From assembly GCA_002269645.1 (NCBI GenBank), contig NIVC01001689.1:185617-249616 (forward strand): a stretch of DNA of 64,000 nucleotides. Direction: 5' to 3'. The stretch comes from Macrostomum lignano. Its lineage: Eukaryota. Each line of letters begins with the position of its first letter. The first letter of the stretch is position 1. Made by a program: the position numbers and the translations under genes. The notes beneath the pieces were generated by a model. The model worked only from the letters and a program-made list of their open reading frames with translations, made no database searches and was not told the DNA's origin. Below, one piece after another: positions 43,631-64,000 of the stretch.

Positions 43631-46600
43631 ATGTTTAAGTTTACTGCACCTGCACGCACTTCTTTGCTCTTCTTAGGGGCCTACAATGGGTAAGTAAAGT
43701 TTATTAAATAATATGGGCCTGCAACTTCAAGATTCTAAGACAGACCCTAACCCATAGTAGGCCTGAATAATGAATGCTATGATTTGCTATGCCATGCCAT
43801 CTGTTGTAGTTTTGTGGCAGTTCAATGAAGTCATGGTCTCACCATCTCAGCTGGGTACAGGATTTGCCATGTGTATTTTTTTGTTTTTTAGACTTAATGT
43901 AATGATTTTTTAAATTATGATATTACTTTTTAAATGGTATAGTATTGTCTAAAGTATTTTTTCTAGATTTGCACCTACCTTTAAATATTATAGGCTTTAA
44001 CTTTTTAAAATCATTTCTGACAAGTCAAATTAGTCAATAAGGAATAACAATGTTGTTAATATTTGTAATATAAATTTCAACACATTTCTCAAAACCTCAA
44101 TTTTACAATTTTAAACAAATTAATTTGGTTAGTCATTATCATTATTAAGAGTCCCAAAAGTTCACAGAATGTTTGATGAAGCTCATCAATAGCCCTATTG
44201 CAGCCAAGGTCTGAACCGCGCCGGACGCCCCCCTTTCCCGCGCCAGACATCTACCCGTACTGCGCCAGGGCCAGTCCCCAGGATCAGTGATTTGGTTCAA
44301 TTAGTCAGTCAATGGCTCGCCGCGCGCTGCGCGCCGCCGCCACACACCACGCCACCGCGCGCCGCCGCCACGCGCCGCGCCGCCACCGCGCGCCGCGCCG
44401 CCACCAGTCCAATCCGCGCCGGACGCCGTCCACGAAAATGGCCATTGGCTGCAATAGGGATCAATAGGCTAGGCCTACCTTAACCCTATAGTCAGGATCA
44501 TGTCATAGTATACACTGGAATAAAAAGTCCCCTAAAAAAATCTACGCCACTTCATACTGAAACGTACGCCAAGGTCCTAGGAACTTACGCTAGGTTTTCT
44601 AGGCTTTGCAACAATAAATGACCTTTTTTGCGTGTTACACATTTTTTAACAATAAAAATTTAACAAATTGTGGTATTCGTTTAAAGTAAATTGGCTTATA
44701 GATAATGCCAACAAAAATCAAATTTTTGTTTAAGTTTTTTATAGAAAATTAACACGATTAGTTTGCATGGAATTTAAAATTTTTATAAATCACAAATAGT
44801 TATGAACTTTCATCTTACAAGTTTTATGATTTTTATGATTTTATAATAAGATTCTGAGGTTACGGCATTATGCCAACAATTGTTAATATTAACTTTGGCA
44901 TGAAGGTTGGAGTTGGCATACGCTGCTTGGCGTATTTATGCCATGGCGTCATGCCATAAGGTATGCCAAATATATTTTGCCTCATTTTTTATGCCAATTG
45001 TACACCGGAAATTTCCGGCATAATGTACATCATCCTGACTATGGCCTTAACCTTACCAATTTTGATATTTTAGCCTGTCATATATGTCAAACTAAAGATA
45101 AATTTTCAACTAAAAAGCTTGTTTTTTAATTTTCTTTTTATCTAGTTCTAGTTAAGAGTTATAAAAAAAATTAAAAGAAGGTTAGTACCAACTAATGTTA
45201 TATAACCATAACCTTAAGTGTCTCAAATTTAGAAATCTTTGAGAGATTTAAATCAGTGGTACTAATTTGGTAGAGTTGACTTGGAAATGGTCAATTAAAC
45301 AGATAGCTCTTAAATTGTCAGATGAGCATCCAAGTCCAACAGAGCTATGACCTATTAACATGATATCTTATCACCTAATATGCAAACTTAGATGCTAGAT
45401 AGTGGCTGGTCATTCACTAAAATAGCTGGTCATTCATAATAAATTGGCTATCTTTGAGCCATTGGATCAATTCATTAATAGCTATGCAGTTTTGGTTCTA
45501 ATCTATCCTATAGACTATATGGCAAAAACTTGACTTCATTGACTCTAGGACAAGGTATGGAAAGAGCTCATCTTAAAATTTTATTTGAAAAAGAAACATT
45601 TGGTATGGAATAAACAAGCATTGAGAGCATTACATAGGGTCAATCTGTTTCTCCAATATGTTATCAACATACATATGCAACACTTGGCTAAGTAGGCCAG
45701 TCCCTAGCTGGCTAGCGAATGGCTCAGCCAAAGTAAGTTGCAAAATTGCCCCTACCGAAAATATAGATATAGTACTAATTAGATGGTATTTAGCCTTAAA
45801 TATAAAGTCATAGTTACGCCTGCTGTTTATCTAAAATCATATGAATTTTTGTTTGCATTTAATTTATAGATAATTTGCATTTTTTGGTCAAAAAGTAAAT
45901 TGCACAGCAGTTGTAAAATAAGTGGGTTGCATAATTCATACATGCACAATCTTGGGAATCACCTAGCCATTTCTATTGGCAACACACATGTAAATTGCTA
46001 AATGAACTGAATAGTAGTCACGTGACTGCTCTCAGCCAATAGCCACTTACATGTGTATGTTGCCAGTAGAAATGGCTGGGTGAATCCCTAGGTTGTGCCT
46101 AAGCATGTTGCACATGAGTGTGGCTAAAAGATCTAAAAAGTCAAAGATAAAAAAATTATATTGTGCCTAAACTTCAATAAAGCCTCTATAATACTACTAC
46201 TAAAGACTCTGTGTAGATATATCAATCCCCATGAGAAATCTCCCTACCCTAAAACCACCTATTTGCCATGCCCCAGTGGTCTGTTGTAAGCTGCATGTAT
46301 TTGGGCTGAAGCAAAATGGAAATGAAGCTTAACTTTGGAATCAAAAACCTCCATAGAAACGAAATGCATCTGACAGTAGTGAAATCCCTATACTTTTGTC
46401 TGATCTTGTCCACCCTGACATTGTACAGAACGAGTTGAATCAGATCATATCATGACTGACTGGTTTAACCACTGCATTCACTGCAGAGTCCCAGCCAGTT
46501 CACCAGCTCAGCTGTCCTCAGCCGTCGCTGGCTCGGCCTCAGCGCCGCCCTGCGCTCCCCGAAGCTGTTCACCGACCCGCTGGAGGCCGTCAAGGACATC

Positions 46601-49600
46601 CCGGACGGCTCTCGCATCCTTGTTGGCGGCTTCGGACTCTGCGGCATCCCTGAGAATCTCATCGACGGCCTGCACCGGCACGGCGCCAAGGACCTGACGG
46701 TGATCAGCAACAATGCCGGCGTTGACGACTTCGGGCTGGGCCGGCTGCTGCGGTCCAGACAGATCCGCAGGATGGTGTCCTCCTATGTGGGAGAGAATGC
46801 CGAGTTCGCCAGGCAGTACCTCAGCGGCGAGCTGGAGGTAAGGCTGCTTGTGTGCCTGTCTGCTTCTGTGCCTGTCTGCTGTGTCTGTTTGCTTCTGTGT
46901 CTGTCTGCTTCTGTGCCTGTCTGCTTCTGTGTCTGTCTGCTTCTGTGCCTGTCTGCTTCTGTGTCTGTCTGCTTCTGTGTCTGTCTGCTTCTGTGCCTGT
47001 CTGCTTCTGTGTCTGTTTGCTTCTGTGTCTGTTTGCTTCTGTGCCTGTTTGCTTCTGTGTCTGTTTGCTTCTGTGTCTGTCTGCTTCTGTGCCTGTCTGC
47101 TTCTGTGTCTGTCTGCTTCTGTGCCTGTTTGCTTCTGTGTCTGTCTGCTACTGCTTCTGTGCCTGTTTGCTTCTGTGTCTGTCTGCTTCTGCTGTGTCTG
47201 CTTCTGTGCCTGTCTGCTGTGTCTGCTTCTGTGCCTGTCTGCTTCTGTGTCTGTCTGCTTCTGCTGTGTCTGCTTCTGTGCCTGTCTGCTGTGTCTGCTT
47301 CTGTGCCTGTCTGCTTCTGTGTCTGTCTGCTTCTGTGCCTGTCTGCTTCTGTGTCTGTTTGCTTCTGTGTCTGTTTGCTTCTGTGCCTGTCTGCTTCTGT
47401 GTCTGTCTGCTTCTGTGTCTGTCTGCTTCTGTGCCTGTCTGCTTCTGTGTCTGTCTGCTTCTGTGTCTGTTTGCTTCTGTGTCTGTTTGCTTCTGTGCCT
47501 GTCTGCTTCTGTGTCTGTCTGCTTCTGTGCCTGTCTGCTTCTGTGTCTGTCTGCTTCTGTGTCTGTCTGCTTCTGTGCCTGTCTGCTTCTGTGTCTGTTT
47601 GCTTCTGTGTCTGTTTGCTTCTGTGCCTGTTTGCTTCTGTGTCTGTTTGCTTCTGTGTCTGTCTGCTTCTGTGCCTGTCTGCTTCTGTGTCTGTCTGCTT
47701 CTGTGCCTGTCTGCTTCTGTGCCTGTTTGCTTCTGTGTCTGTCTGCTTCTGTGCCTGTCTGCTTCTGTGCCTGTCTGCTGTGTCTGCTTCTGTGCCTGTC
47801 TGCTTCTGTCTGCAAGTCTGCTTATCGTATGCCCAAAAGTGGGATTCGAACATGGCCGAGACTTCACTCCCCCCCCCCCCCGCCGCCAGGTGGAGCTCAC
47901 CCCGCAGGGCACCCTGGCCGAGCGGATCCGGGCGGGAGGCGCCGGCATCCCCGCATTCTACACGCCCACCGGCTACGGCACGCTGATCCACGAGGGCGGC
48001 GCGCCCATCAAGTACGGCGAGTCCGGCAAGTCCGTGTTGATCGCCAGCGACCAGCGCGAGGACCGCCAATTCGATGGCCTGAACTACGTGCTGGAGCGGG
48101 CCATCACAGGCGACTTCGCGTTGGTGAAGGCCTGGCGCGCCGACAAAGCGGGCAACCTGGTGTTCAGGAAGACCGCCAACAACTTCAATGCGCCCATGTG
48201 CACCGCGGCAAAGGTGACTCAACTGTGACCTGACTCACTGGGTATTTGACTTGTGCTAACCCACCTCCTCATGGCTATCTGTGGGTATAGGCGCAACTTT
48301 TAAAATCGACCGCCCGTTTCTACTGGCAACACATGTCACGTGACAGGGCAGTCACGTGACAACTGGTTTGTCCAATAGCGACTTGCGTGTGTGTTGCAAG
48401 TTGAAACGGCCGGGCGAAATCGGAAACTTGCATATCTATGGGTATCCGTCTCTTCTCATGGGTATCCGTCTCTTCTCATGGGTATCCGTCTCTTCTCATG
48501 GGTATTTGTCTCTTCTCATGGGTATCTGTCTCTTCTCATGGGTATTTGTCTCTTCTCATGGGTATTTGTCTCTTCTCATGGGTATCTGTCTCTTTTCTCA
48601 TGGGTATCTGTCTCTTCTCATTGGTATCTGTCTCTTCTCATGGGTATCTGTCTCTTTTCTCATGGGTATCTGTCTCTTCTCATTGGTATCTGTCTCTTCT
48701 CATGGGTATCTGTCTCTTTTCTCATGGGTATCTGTCTCTTCTCATTGGTATCTGTCTCTTCTCATGGGTATCTGTCTATTCTCTCATGGGTATCTGTCTC
48801 TTCTCATGGGTATCTGTCTCTTCTCATGGCTATCTGTCTTTCCTCATGGGTATCTGTCTCTTTCCTCATGGGTATCTCCATCTCAGACATCGGGCACTTA
48901 ACCCATTAACCCCATAGCAGAATTGCATTCAACGCCCCTTCCCTTTCAACGCAGGTTACCATCGCAGAGGTTGAGGAGATCGTTGAGACAGGCGAGATCC
49001 CACCTGAGCAGGTGCACATCCCCGGCATTTACGTCAAACGGCTGCTGCGAGGCGCCGCCTACGAGAAGCGAATTGAGCGGCGAACTCTGCGCAAAGCCTC
49101 GGGGCCCGCCGGGGGCGGTGAGTGTGGGGAGAATCTTTCTGTATGCTTTTTTCGTATACCTTCCGCTTCAGCAATCATGAGCATTGCCATTCAGTAATCC
49201 TAAAATCATCCGTCACCAAATCCCATCATTAAGATCCCCAAATCACACCATTGAGATCCCCAAATCCCACCATTAAGTTTCCCAAATCCCAACCATTGAG
49301 ATTCCCAAATCCCACCATTAAGATCCCCAAATTCCACCATTGAGATTCCCAAATCCCACCATTAAGTTTCCCAAATCCCAACCATTGAGATTCCCAAATC
49401 CCACCATTAAGATCCCCAAAATCCCAAAATCCCACCATTATAAATCCCAAGAGCTTCGCTATAAAAAATCCTTTCAGAGGTCGGCGAGTCGTCCCGCGAG
49501 CGCATCATCCGCCGCCTGGCGCTGGAGTTCAAGGACGGCATGTACGTGAACCTGGGTATCGGGATGCCGATGCTGGCCGCCAGCTTCATCCCCGCTGGCG

Positions 49601-57538: not shown

Positions 57539-57774
57539 TGTTGTGAATTGAACTCCGGCTGAAGTATTTAACTCATGAGCTTAAGATTCTTTATATTTCT
57601 TATTTGGAAGAGATCAAGAAGGTGAGCTATAGCAACTTTGGGCTGGGTTAATTACCATATAGAAGAAACTGTAGCGATAGAATGCTTAGAGGAGATTAGT
57701 GCAAACAAACGGCGTTGAATAACGAACTTGAACTTATATAAACTATAGTGCATCTCAGTGTGCGATACACCACA
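57539..57774 (-). mobile_element. Putative 3' LTR of Gypsy copy 2
   Basis: PPT AGGGAGGGGCA (57785-57775) is followed directly by TGTGGTGTATC; the element ends ...TTCACAACA at about 57539. Confidence 0.7.
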
Positions 57775-57874
57775 TGCCCCTCCCTATATTCAGAAGATGT
57801 CAATTGGAACAGTGAAGTCGTTTTATGTCGTTTCATTAATTTCGCGTTTTTCTCAACCCTCCTCGGATACCAGT

Positions 57875-58891
57875 TTAAGGCACAAAGCGCTCAGGAGCGG
57901 ATCGGTTTCTGAGGCTCCTTCTCAGCTGAACGGCTTCTTCAGGCACGGGTGTCTGAATCCCTGCGACTGGCTCGTTTCCGGTTTCTGGCACGCTGTTAGT
58001 CTCATCTTCGTCCTCCATCTCGAATTCCGATGGCCGGGGGGCCAGTGGGGCAAGGTGATTCGTGCTTGCAAGGCGAAGCCCATCGTCAGCGAGGATCCAC
58101 GCCGTGTTTTGACCTGCCGTCATCACGAACTTTGCCGGGTTGCCGACTGAGGAGCTGCTGGGCGCATAGATCACGCTGTCACACTGTTCGAAGTTGGTCA
58201 CCACCGGGACTCTGAGTCGCCGTCCAAAAAGAATTTCGGCTGGGCAGCAGCCCCGCGAAGAGGCTGAGTTTCTGTGGTGCAGGAGGACCTTTTGCAAGAA
58301 GCGGCTAAACTCCACGTGCGTAATTTTTTCAGACCAGGCCCTTAGTGCGGACTTGACGGTCTGAACGGCCCTTTCTGCGGCTCCATTCGCCTGCGGGTAA
58401 TAGGTAGGTGACTCGAGCTTCTTGGCACCATTGGCGCGGAGCCACGATGTGAGCACTTCAGTGGTGAACTCTGGGGCGTTGTCCGAAACCACCAGCTCGG
58501 GGACGCCGAACCGTGTGAATACGGTACGCAGGCACTGAATGACTGAATCAGCTGTGCGATCGCGGCAAGGAAATGCTTCTATCCAGCCGGAAAAGGAATC
58601 CACGATGACCAGGATGTTTCCAGCGCCTTTTACGTATGCCCAGTCCATGTGTACGCGCTGGAACGGATACGTTGATGGAGGCCAGCGATCCCTGTCGTGG
58701 CCGAGTTGAGGCCGAAGCCTGCAGCAGTCTGGACAGCGTCGAACAAACTGGGCAACGTCCTGTTGCATTCCGGGCCACCAGCAGCTGGTAGACATTAGAC
58801 TGTGCGCTGCATGCATGCCCGTGTGCGTGTCGTGAATGGCATCGAACGCGGCCTTGCGCAGTCTTGGTGGAATGAAGACTCTTCTTTGCAT
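57875..58891 (-). pseudogene. Gypsy integrase (H2C2 + DDE core), separated from RT by a deletion
   Basis: IHDTHTG...WWPGM...CPDC, RVHMDWA, VVSDNAPEF and NGAAERAVQ. Confidence 0.95.
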
Positions 58892-58954
58892 GTAGAGTAG
58901 TCCATTTTCTAGCGTTAGTTTGTTTGAGACTTTTCAAAGTTTAGTTTTCAAACG

Positions 58955-60880
58955 TTAGTTTGGTTGATGGTCTGTGCGTATTGTGAATGGTCGGCCATGG
59001 CAGTAGTGCTTCAAGCGTGCGATGGCCCAAACAATAGCCAAGGCCCCCCGCTCGATGTTAGAATAATTGGATTCAGCGGAGGACAGGCTACGTGACACGT
59101 ATATCACGGGATGGCCATCTTGTGTTGCCACGGCGGCGAGGGCTCCTTTGGAAGCATCAGTGGTCAGCGTCAGTTCCTTTGTCAAGCTGTAGGGCTGGAC
59201 CACAGGCGCTGAAGCGATTTCCAGCTTTAGGCTCTCGAACGCTTTGGAACACTCCTCCGACCACACGAACGGAACGCTTGCTTGTCGTAGTCTATTAAGC
59301 GGTGCAGTTTTGCCTGCAAAGTTTGGGATGAGGCGGCCGAAGAAGTTTACCAAGCCAAGAAAGTGAGCGAGCTCTGATTTATTTGCTGGCGGGCACACAT
59401 GGCGAATTTTCTCCACTAGGCGATCATCGGGCTGAATACCAGCCGCGGATATTCGGAAGCCCAAGAACGAAACCGAATCGCAATAGCTGATGCTTTTCGC
59501 TTCGTTGATAGTCACGCGCTTCTCAGATAGACGCGTTCGCACAGCAGCGAGGCGCTTCTCCAGCGTGGGTTTGTCTGGCGCGTGAATGAGAATGTCGTCT
59601 TGGTAGATAAGCAGTCCTTTGATGTCTCCTAGAATGGATTCCATGGTGCGTTGGAAGATGAAGGAGGCGTTCTTCATCCCCATTTGCAGCCGATTGACAC
59701 GATAGAGCCCGCGGGACGTGTTTATTACCGATAGGTCTCTCGCGGCTTCATCAAGCTCGATCTGCCAGTACGCCGAACGTAGATCGACTGTGGCGAAAGT
59801 TTTGGCGTTCTTTAGCTTGGAGAACATGGTCTCGATGTGTGGAATGGGATATGAGTCTGATTTGATCTTCGAATTGACGTGCACGCTGTAGTCCGCGCAC
59901 ATGCGGAGAGTTCCATCCTTCTTCTTTACCCACACTACGGGTGAAGCGTTACTAACCGGACCCTCTGTTGGCTCGATGACACCAAGTTGGTGGAGGCGAT
60001 CCAGTTCTGCGCTGATTTGGCTTTCTAGGGCGAGTGGCACAGCACGAGCGCGGCAAAATTGTGGTTTAGCACCGTCCACCAGTTCCATTCGGGCCTTAAC
60101 GCCTCGGATACAGGGCAGAGGTTCGACGGCAGTTTTTTCTGCTTGAACATCGCTGGCATGGAAGACACCGTCAGACTCGAGGAGGTCGCGGCCGAGCAAC
60201 CCGTACGTCTTTTCCGAAGAGACTACAATCAGTTCCACTGGTTGAAGGCGTCCTCGTAGCTCCACAGTTGCAGTCACTTTACCAAGCGATTTCATGACGT
60301 GCCCGTCGAAGGCCTCCAAGCGCCGATTGGAACGCATTAGTGGTGGCTTACCCAGCAGAGCCCATTGCGCACTGGAGAGCACGGAGACTGATGCTCCCGT
60401 GTCGATCTGCATTTTGAAGGGCTTATCGTTGATGCGCACAGTCTCCGTAGATACTTCAATCGAATTGAGCGCATCGATGAGATGCAGTACGTCTGTTTTT
60501 TGTTGGGCGGAATCTGAATCCTCCTCACCAGTAGTCGTGTAGTGCATGGATCGAGACTTACAAACAGTACTGAAGTGGTTTTTCTTTCCACACTTGGAGC
60601 AGCTTTTTCCGAAAGCGGGGCATCTGCCTTCGGGTGTGACTTGCCACAGTACCGACAGGCGCTGATTGTGCGATGAGAGCTTGCATGCTGCGATGTCTCA
60701 GGCCGACCGGATTGAGCGTAATGAAGGGTGGCTTCGTAGGTGCATGGTGATTTAGATTGGCCGGTTGCCTTGTCCATCTGCCTGGCGACGAAGCCATCGA
60801 CTTGCTCTAGGTTGCGTATGAAGTCCGTGATTTCTGAGACGGACATCAGTTTCAGCTGCATTGCTTCGAGTACCCCTTCT
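58955..60880 (-). pseudogene. Gypsy gag C-terminus - aspartic protease - RT - truncated RNase H
   Basis: CRYCGKSH / CPAFGKSCSKCGKKNHFSTVC (1-nt frameshift near 60627), QIDTGAS, RMCADYS, VDLRSAYWQI, IYQDDILI, TTDAS, NIERGALA, and DHQPN* premature end. Confidence 0.93.
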
Positions 60881-61045
60881 AGTAGTAGGGGAAATGTGGA
60901 CTCTGCCGCAGGAATTTCCGTGGGAAAACCACGGGCCTATGTGTGTAAACATAGCGCCTATGTAAATGCATTGGTGGACTCTGCCGCAGGGAAAGCCATG
61001 GAAATTCCATGGGGCCTTAGTGAGAGAACATAGGCCTATGTTTTT
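60881..61045 (+). repeat. Polinton terminal region (putative left TIR) with direct repeats and hairpins
   Basis: GTGGACTCTGCCGCAGG at 60896-60912 and 60974-60990; hairpins CCGTGG-GAAAA-CCACGG and CCATGG-AAATT-CCATGG; palindrome AACATAGGCCTATGTT at 61027-61042. True TIR length cannot be determined without the right end. Confidence 0.75.
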
Positions 61046-61078
61046 CTATTGCTGTATGTCTGCTGCAGTGGTTTAGTC

Positions 61079-61085
61079 TATATAA
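61079..61085 (+). promoter_or_regulatory. TATA box for the first Polinton gene
   Basis: TATATAA about 80 bp upstream of the ATG at 61163. Confidence 0.5.
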
Positions 61086-61162
61086 GGACCAAAAAATCTC
61101 TTTGATTCATGAAAAATCGAATTTTTTTTCAACGAGATTTTTTTTCTGTTAGAGTTTAAGTC

Positions 61163-61927
61163 ATGGACATCGGCGAAGGATATAAACTCCAAATACAGGA
61201 GTATGAAGGAGTTATGTTCATTGCTATCAGAAAATTTTACCGACATGGCAGCACTGCGAGTTTGAAACCTGGAGTCCCCGGCTTCAATTTGAACATCCGT
61301 CAGTGGGAGAAGCTCAAGGAGTTGAAGCGATCACTTGTCAAGGCGGCCTTGGACAAACAGCCAAAGGTTGTCAAACTCGGCTTCGATAAGTTCATCGAAG
61401 TGAAAAACGGCATTATCTGGTTAAAGCGATTGCCGGAGGACTGCTGCGACGAGTTTCTTAAGCGGAACACCGTGCCGCTGACACCGCCGCTGTGGCGAAA
61501 GCTGTGGCAGTACGCGGATTGGATCGACGAGCAGCTATCGGCTCCACGTGAGATTTCCGATGCATACGAGCTGGAGTCGGGATCTTCCTCCGACAGCATC
61601 GAAAATGAAGACGATGCTGGCGAAAACGCGGAAGAGACCAAGCCGGTAGTGAAGGCGGAGGACGATGCTGCTGCTGCTGCTGGCGAGGCTGGCATGCCAT
61701 CCAATCTGCAAATCGACACAGCGTTTGCCACTTCAACGCCTCTGCAACTGACCAAGCCAGCAGCTGGAGCGATTCCTCGGCAGGACACTGATCTGCAAGA
61801 GGACCCAGTCTGGTACCAGTTCCGAGCTCAAGCAGCCGCCGCTGAGAACGCCAGGAAACGCAAGCAGCCGCCATTCGCTCTGCGCAGATTGGATGCCATG
61901 AAGCTGCCCAGGCCGTGCTTCGACTGA
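61163..61927 (+). CDS. Polinton-encoded PC4/Sub1-like ssDNA-binding protein, 254 aa, probably two PC4 repeats
   Basis: DIGEGYKLQIQEYEGVMFIAIRKFY...KPGVPGFNLNIRQWEKL matches the PC4 pattern (IG..R.V.V.EFKG...IDIREYY...KPG.KGISL...QW..L). A second degenerate copy is KLGFDKFIEVKNGIIWLKR...VPLTPPLWRKL. Acidic linker and basic RKRK tail follow. Confidence 0.75.
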   Translation: MDIGEGYKLQIQEYEGVMFIAIRKFYRHGSTASLKPGVPGFNLNIRQWEKLKELKRSLVKAALDKQPKVVKLGFDKFIEVKNGIIWLKRLPEDCCDEFLKRNTVPLTPPLWRKLWQYADWIDEQLSAPREISDAYELESGSSSDSIENEDDAGENAEETKPVVKAEDDAAAAAGEAGMPSNLQIDTAFATSTPLQLTKPAAGAIPRQDTDLQEDPVWYQFRAQAAAAENARKRKQPPFALRRLDAMKLPRPCFD

Positions 61928-62094
61928 TTGCAGACCCTCTGACATTGAGACAAACTCTGTGCTACGAGCTATTTATCCAGACCTGCTTTCCATCTCTTTG
62001 TTTGAAAAAATATATATGCTTGCTTTCACATGCGCTATGCATTTTCAATGTCTTAAGAAAACCTAAAAATAAAAATGTTTCTTTGTTTCCGAAA

Positions 62095-63162
62095 ATGGAA
62101 AAAATTTATTTCAACCCAAATCAGCCTGCGAGCTATTGCAGTTCTTCAAAACTGCAACCTGAACTGCGAAAAAGAGGCGAGCATATTGGAGTCAAGAGCA
62201 TTGAGCAGTGGCTAAGTCAGCAGCCAGTACACACTCTGCATAAGCCAGCTAGAGTACGATTTCCAAGGGCGCCAATAATAGTGAGAGCCATTGATGATCA
62301 GTGGGAGATGGATCTGGTGGAAATGATTCCATTTGCAAAGTATAATCGCGGGCATAAATACATTCTCACCTGCATTGATGTTTTGTCTAAATTTGCAATG
62401 GCCAGAGCACTGAAGTCTAAGAGCGCGGCAGAAGTGAAATCTGCGTTTGAGAGCATGCTGAAGAGCTCAAAGCGGCAGCCGCGCACTGTCCGCACAGATC
62501 AGGGAAAGGAGTTTGTCAACGCAATTTTTCGCCAGTTCTGCATAGACCGGGGGATTCTGGCGTTTCCAACTAGCAGTGTGCACAAAGCAGCCATAATTGA
62601 AAGATGGAATCGAACTTTAAAAAGCAAGATGTGGCGTTACTTTACTCACAACAGCACTCTACAATGGCTTGATGTGCTGCCTAAACTGGTCAAGTCCTAT
62701 AACAATACTTTCCACAGAAGCATCAAGACTACACCAATGAATGTCAGCAAAGCAAACGAGACTGAAGTGTGGATGAACCTTTATGATGGGAAAGCGATTG
62801 AGACAGTTGAGAAACTGAGAAAACCGAAGTTCTGTGAAAACCAATCAGTGCGGATTTCCAATGCACCCAGACTCTTCAGGAAGGGATACAAGGCGAACTG
62901 GAGCGAAGAGGTGTACACCATAGTGTCTAGGGCACCAAAGCATTATCCCTACATGTACAGGATTCGAGACATGAAGGGGGAAGACATAAGAGGCCTCTTC
63001 CACGAGCATGAGCTGCAAGCTGTTCCGGACTCGCAGCGGCTGTATGTAATCGAGAAGGTTCTGAAGACTGAGAAGCGGAAGGGTAAGATCCGATATCTCG
63101 TCAAGTGGGCCGGCTACAAGTCCACTGACTGGGTGGATGAGAAGGACTTAAGAAAAGTGTAA
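62095..63162 (+). CDS. Polinton retroviral-type (rve) DDE integrase with C-terminal chromodomain, 355 aa
   Basis: N-terminal YFNP..P.SY, QWEMDL (D1), RTDQGKEF (D2), IIERWNRTLK (E), YNNTFHRSIKTTP, FRKGYKANWSEEVY and chromodomain YVIEKVL...YLVKWAGY. ATG at 62095; the track start at 61915 is a non-ATG extension. Confidence 0.95.
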   Translation: MEKIYFNPNQPASYCSSSKLQPELRKRGEHIGVKSIEQWLSQQPVHTLHKPARVRFPRAPIIVRAIDDQWEMDLVEMIPFAKYNRGHKYILTCIDVLSKFAMARALKSKSAAEVKSAFESMLKSSKRQPRTVRTDQGKEFVNAIFRQFCIDRGILAFPTSSVHKAAIIERWNRTLKSKMWRYFTHNSTLQWLDVLPKLVKSYNNTFHRSIKTTPMNVSKANETEVWMNLYDGKAIETVEKLRKPKFCENQSVRISNAPRLFRKGYKANWSEEVYTIVSRAPKHYPYMYRIRDMKGEDIRGLFHEHELQAVPDSQRLYVIEKVLKTEKRKGKIRYLVKWAGYKSTDWVDEKDLRKV

Positions 63163-63192
63163 GATACCGACATTGTGCAGCCATTCCCAACT

Positions 63193-63993
63193 ATGAGAAG
63201 CATCATCATTTGTAGCGAAAATGCTGAAGGTACTCCTAGTGACTTTCATTTTCACCTGCCTTCATCTATTTACTTGGATCGAAATGTGGACTATGAGGCA
63301 GGTCTGGCTGAAATCCATCTGCCTGCTGCATGGTTCAATGTTGACGAGCCTTACTGCTTCACTGTCTCAGATGGAAGAGAGCATGAGGCCCTGGTTCTTC
63401 AACCCGGACGCTTTGCTAGAGTGGAGGAACTGGTGGAACGCCTGAATGAGCTGCTGGCCAACTCTGAGTCACTGTTCTTCGATGCAATGAGCGAAAGGGA
63501 GTCTGAAATGGAAGCTGATGAGTCCGGTTTAATGGGGCGGAGCAGCGCTAGAGATATTGGCATAAAGTTTGAAATCCAAGAGTTGAGAACAGTAGTGCTC
63601 AACAACACGGCTCGAGCAGAATTGTTCCTTCCATCAAGTAAAATTCTGCAGTGGCTGGGATTCGGAAACCAGCCTGTGAAGATCCCACCCGGACGGCAAG
63701 TGTCACTCTGCTGCATCGGTTGTCCGCCCACCAACCTGATCAACTTGCACTGCAGCATTGTGGAGCGAACAAACTGTAACTGGAACTCCGTGCTGCGAAC
63801 TGTGAGCATGTCATCCGATGTCGAATGGGGCAGCTACATGAGCAAAGTGTTTAAGAAAGCAATTTTCTTCCCGATTCAGAAAGCTAATTTTCTATATGGC
63901 ATTAGATTTCAACTGCGTGACATCTTTGGCTACTCACTGACTGCTCGGAGCAGCAGCCCTGTTCTGCTCACAGTTCATATTCGGAAAGGCTAA
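63193..63993 (+). CDS. Polinton minor capsid protein (penton-like single jelly-roll), 266 aa
   Basis: N-terminal SDFHFHLPSSIYL...YEAGLAEIHLPAAWFN and C-terminal FQLRDIFG...VLLTVHIRK match the typical Polinton mCP pattern; located directly after the integrase. Confidence 0.8.
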   Translation: MRSIIICSENAEGTPSDFHFHLPSSIYLDRNVDYEAGLAEIHLPAAWFNVDEPYCFTVSDGREHEALVLQPGRFARVEELVERLNELLANSESLFFDAMSERESEMEADESGLMGRSSARDIGIKFEIQELRTVVLNNTARAELFLPSSKILQWLGFGNQPVKIPPGRQVSLCCIGCPPTNLINLHCSIVERTNCNWNSVLRTVSMSSDVEWGSYMSKVFKKAIFFPIQKANFLYGIRFQLRDIFGYSLTARSSSPVLLTVHIRKG

Positions 63994-64000
63994 TACAATG

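What the first reader, a model, noticed from the sequence alone, without database searches (positions are those of the whole stretch)
60875..64000. Left end of an apparently intact Polinton/Maverick virus inserted into the gag gene of a Gypsy retrotransposon
Seen: the Gypsy gag frame (…EGVLEAMQLKLMSVSEIT…, minus strand) stops abruptly at 60880. At 60881 AGTAGT begins, followed by three uninterrupted, tightly packed, intronless ORFs and a fourth ATG at 63998. Established: Polintons start with AGT-repeat termini, make 6-bp TSDs and encode rve integrase, pPolB, a packaging ATPase, a protease and two capsid proteins. Inference: this is a recent insertion, since the Polinton ORFs are clean while the host Gypsy carries a frameshift, a deletion and a catalytic mutation. 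It may be a virion-competent endogenous virus.
Basis: partly seen in the sequence, partly recalled or inferred. Interest (0 to 1): 0.85.

Follow-up and report, generated by a model that had tools for sequence, protein, structure and literature searches.

The report
Polinton beside Gypsy, joined by deletion
This is the real left end of a young virus-like Polinton transposon, but it likely landed in a host gene's intron and only abuts the retrotransposon because a deletion of about 1.4 kb likely removed the DNA between them; this copy is damaged as assembled, while its family carries its own TATA-binding-protein-like and PC4-like genes.

Summary
The Polinton end at 60881 is real: 134-bp terminal repeat, PC4-like ORF, rve integrase with chromodomain, likely minor capsid. 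Sister copies carry a double jelly-roll capsid, protease, ATPase and pPolB. The genome holds 55 exact tips, and copies differ by 0.7-2.2%. (1) It is not inserted in gag. In 13 of 13 uninterrupted Gypsy copies, gag diverges at 60873, so bases 60874-60880 are not gag. Contig C711 overlaps the window end and holds the right end. That end is flanked by an intron of a host CoA-transferase gene, 667 bp from the empty Gypsy site in C1944, and the 7 bases match that target at 6 of 7. About 1.36 kb (gag start, 5' LTR, host exon 1) is missing. (2) This copy is not intact as assembled: a capsid frameshift in both C1321 and C711, a polymerase stop and a 5.2-kb LINE in C711. The Gypsy family is equally young. 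The better finding lies beside it: intronless TBP-like ORFs (at least 150 matches; 7 of 7 divergent ones checked lie in Polintons) under purifying selection, usually with a PC4-like ORF.

The parts
57539..57774 (-). Gypsy 3' LTR (236 bp); the empty site for this Gypsy is in C1944 at 86809/86808
57775..60873 (-). Gypsy gag-pol (protease, RT, RNase H, integrase), cut off at 60873; 458 bp of 5' gag and the 5' LTR are absent
58935..58961 (.). 27 bases in place of 342 (net 315-bp loss); window only, absent from C1321
60874..60880 (+). 7 bases that are not gag; match 6 of 7 the first bases of the host flank at the element's right end: likely the left target-site copy
60881..61014 (+). Left terminal inverted repeat, 134 bp, (AGT)2 tip
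61163..61927 (+). ORF 254 aa with N-terminal PC4 domain (residues 3-53) and acidic low-complexity tail
   Evidence: Pfam PF02229 E 3.6e-6; human PC4 in PDB E 1e-4; Atlas 0.89, a lead only
62095..63162 (+). rve integrase with C-terminal chromodomain-like region, 355 aa; D73, D135, E169 present
   Evidence: PF00665 E 2.5e-16; PF00385 E 1e-4, below cut-off
63193..63993 (+). Likely minor capsid protein; 266 aa here, 269 aa in sisters (1-nt indel near 63983)
   Evidence: gene position; Atlas 0.96-0.97 to viral clusters; fold failed
63998..64000 (+). Start of a 136-aa ORF lying between the likely minor capsid and the major capsid in sister copies
46469..46837 (+). Exon of the first tandem copy of a host CoA-transferase gene; paralogue of the exon lost at the junction
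   Evidence: PF01144 E 1.4e-26
46844..47809 (+). 16-bp intron minisatellite of gene copy 1; its counterpart in copy 2 is the Polinton's target

Best explanation
This is the left end of a young Polinton/Maverick copy that likely integrated into the first-intron minisatellite of a duplicated host CoA-transferase gene, and a deletion of about 1.36 kb likely brought it up against the Gypsy gag. Shown: the terminus, the family's gene set, the non-gag 7 bases, the empty allele, and the right end in host intron DNA. Inferred: C711 is the continuation of this insertion. The 7 bases are likely the left target duplication: 7 bp with one mismatch, or 6 bp with one mismatch plus one extra base. The deletion likely took 458 bp of gag, the 5' LTR and 667 bp of host DNA including exon 1. 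The break falls exactly on the outer edge of the duplicated target, with no microhomology, so I favour deletion during repair of the integration gap (about 55:45 over a later end-joining deletion); in that case the Gypsy was there first. From established knowledge, the family would copy itself with protein-primed pPolB and integrate with rve-INT. The PC4-like protein is predicted to bind single-stranded DNA or act as a coactivator, and the TBP-like protein is predicted to serve the element's own promoters; both are untested.
For: Gag diverges at 60873 in 13 of 13 uninterrupted copies. C1321 has the same junction and the same flank. C1944 is the empty allele. C711 matches window 61247-64000 at 99.6% and C1321 at 99.7% over 10.5 kb; it is closest to the window (0.07% substitutions) and C1321 (0.33%), against 0.74-2.2% for 12 other copies, and shares 15 otherwise private variants with C1321. 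Its flank is colinear with gene copy 2 over 12,928 of 13,305 bp, starting at C1944:86141. The 6/7 match in register has p = 0.0013 for one test. C711 was first singled out as a pol-side end without a partner; 15 of 22 integrase-side ends with flank have an exact 6-bp partner, 5 of them on the same contig. Family genes: protease PF00770, pPolB PF03175, Walker A motif, capsid model pLDDT 78 matching PBCV-1 and iridovirus capsids at E 3e-14.
Against: No single contig spans both ends. C711 also has about 30 private variants that C1321 lacks, and variant partitions among copies are mosaic, so contigs may be partly chimeric or C711 is another haplotype. The target duplication is imperfect and not the family's clean 6 bp (2 of 6 in the plain 6-bp register). 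The p value was computed after the resemblance was noticed, over several registers. The 7 bases also resemble the inverted terminus (CCCCTACT) at 7 of 8, read by eye. All contigs come from one assembly.
Confidence: 0.85

Rival explanations
1. Direct insertion into gag with a CCTTCT duplication; the rest of the Gypsy lies beyond the right terminus.
For: The terminus sits 7 bases from an abruptly ended gag; the family makes 6-bp duplications.
Against: CCTTCT is not in gag at this place, nor in the missing 5' gag or LTR of 5 copies read. No terminus is followed by CCTTCT. No 5' LTR followed by this Gypsy's own target was found (absence in an assembly is weak). The one orphan gag 5' piece, C1920, has no Polinton end and another flank.
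Confidence: 0.03
2. The junction is an assembly chimera between a Gypsy copy and a Polinton copy at a collapsed repeat.
For: The contig ends inside the element; the assembly has indel noise; public short-read contigs did not show a bridging piece among the rows printed.
Against: Two contigs carry the identical junction, 7 non-template bases included, and a third supplies a right end 667 bp from the Gypsy site in the right orientation. A chimera would not be expected to give that geometry.
Confidence: 0.06
3. Two separate events: C711 is an independent insertion in another haplotype, and the window's end came by an aberrant one-ended integration into gag with 7 filler bases copied from the terminus.
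For: C711 has about 30 variants not in C1321; the filler resembles the inverted tip; this gene copy took another Polinton in C1944.
Against: It needs two insertions of nearly the same sub-lineage, same orientation, within 1.4 kb, each missing its partner end; the 7 bases fit the C711 flank in register.
Confidence: 0.06

Closest known systems
Vertebrate Mavericks (Barreat and Katzourakis, PMC8097293; passages read)
   Same: (AGT)2//(ACT)2 tips, terminal repeats, 6-bp duplications, intronless genes, a run of integrase, minor capsid, small ORF, major capsid and protease, purifying selection on core genes, most copies degraded; 12.7-24.6 kb size range.
   Different: Here the ATPase follows the protease on the same strand and only pPolB and one ORF face the other way; TBP-like and PC4-like ORFs are present; PZ, PW and PM homology was not tested.
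Adintoviruses, Beta class (Starrett et al., PMC8502044; sections 7 and 10 and passages read)
   Same: Animal host, integrase with chromodomain, adenain, packaging ATPase, hexon; the weak PF03175 match (E 1e-5 to 1e-17) fits the divergent Beta PolB description.
   Different: Alpha/Beta class and the N-terminal OTU domain were not tested. TBP appears in that paper only as a label in the Fig. 5 legend for MELD viruses and related elements; I could not see which element. PC4 is not mentioned in its main text.
Nematode and oomycete pPolB2 Polintons (10.1101/2023.08.22.554363; passages read)
   Same: pPolB here carries an HNH-type endonuclease VII segment (PF02945, residues 471-512).
   Different: No tree was built, so membership of pPolB2 is open; that paper's main text has no TBP or PC4.
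Ty3/Gypsy LTR retrotransposon (neighbour)
   Same: Single gag-pol frame of 1257 aa in order protease, RT, RNase H, integrase; 234-bp LTRs; 5-bp duplications.
   Different: This copy has lost its 5' LTR and gag start; clade not tested.

Membership tests
Polinton/Maverick | Terminal inverted repeats with (AGT)2//(ACT)2 tips | tested here: met
   134-135 bp in C2520, C84, C109; the C711 right end matches window 60881-61014 at 97%
Polinton/Maverick | 6-bp target site duplication (family) | tested here: met
   15 of 22 integrase-side ends with flank have an exact partner; 5 on the same contig, 10 across contigs by the hexamer alone
Polinton/Maverick | 6-bp target site duplication (this copy) | tested here: inconclusive
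   2/6 in plain register; 5/6 with one extra base; 6/7 as a 7-mer
Polinton/Maverick | rve integrase | tested here: met
   PF00665 E 2.5e-16, D73/D135/E169
Polinton/Maverick | Protein-primed PolB | tested here: met
   PF03175 in C2520, C4807 and C711 pieces; broken or deleted in all 14 non-window stretches read
Polinton/Maverick | Adenovirus-type cysteine protease | tested here: met
   PF00770 above cut-off, C1321
Polinton/Maverick | Packaging ATPase | tested here: inconclusive
   217-aa ORF with Walker A GPTNAGKT, only weak P-loop Pfam hits, 43% identical to an ORF beside integrase and capsid in a metagenome contig; FtsK/A32 family not shown
Polinton/Maverick | Double jelly-roll major capsid | tested here: met
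   Model of the C84 ORF, pLDDT 78; Foldseek to PBCV-1, iridovirus, mavirus, Sputnik capsids, E 3e-14, TM 0.55-0.65
Polinton/Maverick | Single jelly-roll minor capsid | tested here: inconclusive
   Atlas 0.96-0.97, one cluster with Sputnik V18/19 in 26% of members; model failed, pLDDT 32.5; no Pfam or PDB profile hit
Intact Maverick (definition in PMC8097293) | All core ORFs unbroken, both repeats, 6-bp duplication | tested here: not met
   As assembled: capsid frameshift in C1321 and C711, polymerase stop in C711 and several breaks in C1321, LINE insertion
Adintovirus Alpha/Beta | OTU domain at the PolB N-terminus and class by phylogeny | not tested
   No OTU hit in Pfam scans; no HHpred or tree run
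Infectious endogenous virus | Particles or free linear DNA | not testable with these tools
   Only assembled contigs of public runs were available

The most novel reading that the evidence does not exclude
This host harbours an old and still expanding radiation of Polintons (over 100 copies, several families down to 35-40% protein identity) that keeps its own divergent TBP and a PC4 homologue in the core, and uses them to redirect host RNA polymerase to viral promoters, as giant viruses do, during a particle-forming cycle.
Probability: 0.3. Interest if true: 0.7.

Novelty: new variant of a known kind. Interest (0 to 1): 0.42.

Why it matters
The junction itself is a caution: an apparent nested insertion can be a deletion scar, and here it likely knocked out exon 1 of a spare host gene copy. 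If the deletion arose during integration, Polinton integrase makes flanking rearrangements; a second family in the same gene shows an inverted flank duplication. The family matters more. Polintons generally rely on host transcription (recalled), and a conserved, selected TBP plus PC4 pair would give them their own basal transcription factors. Databases already list one such ORF as the host's TATA-box-binding protein, so it can mislead annotation. A young multi-copy family with capsid genes under selection, in what database names suggest is a flatworm, is a place to look for the particles that have not been seen for Mavericks (PMC8097293 abstract).

Tried and rejected
Reading on from the window failed: the contig ends at 64000. 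Pattern searches for a right terminus plus CCTTCT and for a 5' LTR plus the Gypsy's own target found nothing. C1920 and C412, candidates for the missing gag half, are separate Gypsy copies. Public runs: no RNA holder listed. Four runs laid as contigs follow the family majority; no piece bridging 60873-60881 was among the 32 rows printed, 350 were not shown, and such contigs drop rare variants, so this neither supports nor refutes the junction. No relative of the integrase in viral contigs. The minor-capsid fold failed on a 6-sequence alignment; a later 21-sequence profile found nothing in PDB or Pfam. The major capsid has no sequence hit in Pfam or PDB. The tool for contigs encoding given proteins was closed, so neighbourhoods of the distant capsid homologues are unknown; 14 metagenome loci (1.0-4.6 kb) showed no TBP or PC4 but are mostly too short to tell. 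Whether the capsid frameshift is inherited or a systematic assembly error could not be settled: it is in 4 of 10 copies covering the site and follows no single clade. Earlier scan notes: none. Literature: searches for Polinton with PC4, with TATA-binding protein, Maverick with TBP, PC4 with protein-primed, flatworm, Macrostomum and nested insertion showed no description of this pair, seen as listings only unless named. Term searches in PMC11131425, PMC11071296, PMC11071308 and 10.64898/2026.10.13.758929 gave no TBP or PC4. The one supplement held for PMC8502044 (about 4 million characters, possibly cut) had no hit. Figures, bioRxiv supplements, Repbase and subscription papers were not seen and may hold it.
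Full report
Observation. The window shows a Gypsy on the minus strand from 57539, then AGTAGTAGG at 60881, three ORFs and an ATG at 63998. Pfam gives PC4 for the first ORF, rve plus a weak chromodomain for the second, nothing for the third, and protease, RT, RNase H and integrase for the Gypsy. The window is the end of contig C1689, so the element is cut by the assembly.

It is a Polinton. The left 280 bp has 40 scored matches of 184 candidates, and the 19-base tip occurs exactly 55 times: 23 integrase-side, 21 polymerase-side, 11 unclassified. The assembly holds duplicated haplotypes, so this is roughly 20-25 insertion sites (inference). Copies with both ends are 6.7-16.5 kb with 134-135 bp repeats. 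Of 22 integrase-side ends with flank, 15 have an exact 6-bp partner. Sisters carry, in order, PC4-like, integrase, likely minor capsid, a 136-aa ORF, major capsid, protease, ATPase, three unnamed ORFs and a TBP-like ORF, then on the other strand pPolB and one more ORF. The 427-aa ORF of C84, folded with 21 of its 23 homologues, matches double jelly-roll capsids. The minor capsid call rests on position and on Atlas features only.

It is not inserted in gag. Of 15 loci laid against the junction, 13 are uninterrupted Gypsy copies and all leave the window after 60873; the other two are the window and C1321, which share the 7 extra bases. C1321 matches the window over about 20 kb (97-99.8%) and is a second haplotype or duplicate of the locus. 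A third copy of the flank, C1944, has neither element at the site. No terminus is followed by CCTTCT. One polymerase-side end without a partner, C711:13306, lies on a contig whose other end overlaps window 61247-64000 at 99.6%. Its outer flank is the 16-bp minisatellite in intron 1 of the second tandem copy of a CoA-transferase gene, starting at C1944:86141. That flank begins CCCGTCT and the window's 7 bases are CCCTTCT. The missing DNA adds up to 458 + about 235 + 5 + 667, about 1,365 bp, and includes exon 1 of that gene copy. In C1944 this gene copy is already 92% identical to copy 1 in exon 1 and holds another Polinton, so it is likely a spare copy that tolerates damage.

Mechanism. Established for rve integrases (recalled): two strand transfers at staggered positions leave single-strand gaps that the host fills. 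A break at the outer edge of the left gap, resection and end joining would keep the target copy and lose the adjacent DNA, which is what is seen; there is no microhomology at the joint. A later deletion that happened to stop at the same base is the alternative. I put these at about 55:45. The order of the two insertions follows only in the first case.

It is not intact as assembled. C1321 and C711 share a 1-nt frameshift near codon 130 of the major capsid, also seen in C4807 and C4909. C711 has a stop after codon 855 of pPolB, absent in the 10 other copies covering it, and a 5.2-kb LINE in the last ORF. C1321 has several pPolB breaks and ends inside the element. Against over-reading this: C711 has three single-base indels in the first three genes that the window and C1321 lack, so part of the damage is probably assembly noise. 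None of the 14 non-window stretches read has an unbroken pPolB, but most insertion sites were not read and an intact copy is not excluded.

Age. The frameshift and the 315-bp loss in the Gypsy are absent from C1321; only the RNase H substitution is shared. The Gypsy family is itself young: LTR pairs have no substitutions in 3 of 3 comparable copies, and 2 of 5 copies read have a whole 1257-aa frame. Both elements are recent: the two occupied copies differ by 2 substitutions in the Polinton's first 3.1 kb, while the empty allele differs by 3% in the flank.

Selection. Among 12 copies, with this locus counted once, pN/pS is 0.33 for shared variants (104 N, 90 S) and 0.37 for private ones (40 N, 31 S); the capsid has 5 N and 13 S. 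Against the 76%-identical family in C1944, dN/dS is 0.07 for the capsid, 0.09 for the ATPase, 0.20 for the likely minor capsid and 0.23 for the TBP-like ORF, which partly overlaps its neighbour; synonymous sites are saturated for integrase, PC4-like, protease and pPolB. This agrees with what PMC8097293 reports for fish Mavericks and supports, without showing, a particle stage.

TBP and PC4. The 187-aa ORF matches TBP (PF00352 E 4.5e-22; archaeal and human TBP in PDB at E 2e-17 to 3e-12) and keeps the YEPE-F and LLF-G motifs of the second repeat. A genome search gave 152 matches from 150 of 237 candidates scored, most with open intronless frames at 76-100% identity. I fetched 7 divergent ones (35-89%); all 7 lie in Polintons in the same place after the 281-aa ORF, and a PC4-like ORF was found in 5 of them, the other two stretches not reaching it or being rearranged. 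Homologues in the protein collection number 5, two of them named by their sources as Macrostomum lignano proteins, one as TATA-box-binding protein, so the host is probably that flatworm or a close relative (inference). In print, TBP appears as a figure label for a MELD virus in PMC8502044, VLTF3 in coral polintoviruses (PMC11131425, passage), and flatworm Orthopolintovirales insertions in 10.1101/2025.04.19.649669 (section 10). I found no description of the pair in the searches listed under Tried and rejected.

Verdict. A true Polinton end of a young family; the nesting in gag is a deletion scar (0.85) and this copy is damaged as assembled. The locus alone is ordinary. The conserved TBP-like and PC4-like genes make the family a variant worth a tree and an expression test. 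Interest 0.42.

Noticed in passing
G000:C1944:56244-80872 (L062-L065): A second Polinton family (about 76% identical) in another intron of the same host gene copy, 6-bp duplication CAAGCA; C711 holds the empty site. Inside its left end lie an inverted 740-bp copy of the right flank and a second terminus at 79651, and its integrase is split by a 6-kb insert with inverted halves.
   Followed up: partly
G000:C711:14978-20153 (L156): A LINE with PHD fingers, AP endonuclease and RT inserted at a CAG run in the Polinton's last ORF, in frame, giving an 807-aa fusion frame.
   Followed up: partly
G000:C4909:18240 and C1545:201610: Ends with a third AGT unit; C4909 pairs with C3307 once the extra unit is counted. 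C356 and C3901/C1698 have 5/6 duplications (read by eye).
   Followed up: no
G000:C84:667694-679831 and C106:360392-372511: Two insertions at different sites share the same large pPolB deletion but have an open capsid frame, which suggests mobilisation in trans. C3033 and C201 share a 2.4-kb capsid-region deletion.
   Followed up: no
G000 C356, C544, C869, C1186, C1426, C1876, C2236, C3676: Eleven exact tips, ten of which may belong to short non-autonomous derivatives or related families; C356 is only 1.3 kb from tip to tip.
   Followed up: no
G000:C219 and C130 (L177-L180): Mosaic copies: capsid to 281-aa ORF 94-100% identical to this family, but integrase 78%, PC4-like 45% and pPolB 55-65%, which suggests module exchange between families.
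   Followed up: no
window:46453-57538: Host CoA-transferase (SCOT/OXCT-like) gene in tandem copies, introns rich in minisatellites (periods 16, 20, 22, 34).
   Followed up: partly
L040:5884 (G000:C271): In whole Gypsy copies the gag ATG follows the 5' LTR directly and overlaps the TGG-starting primer site; C1140 holds three copies about 11-19 kb apart.
   Followed up: no
pPolB, L157:1483-4047: HNH-type endonuclease VII segment inside pPolB at residues 471-512.
   Followed up: no
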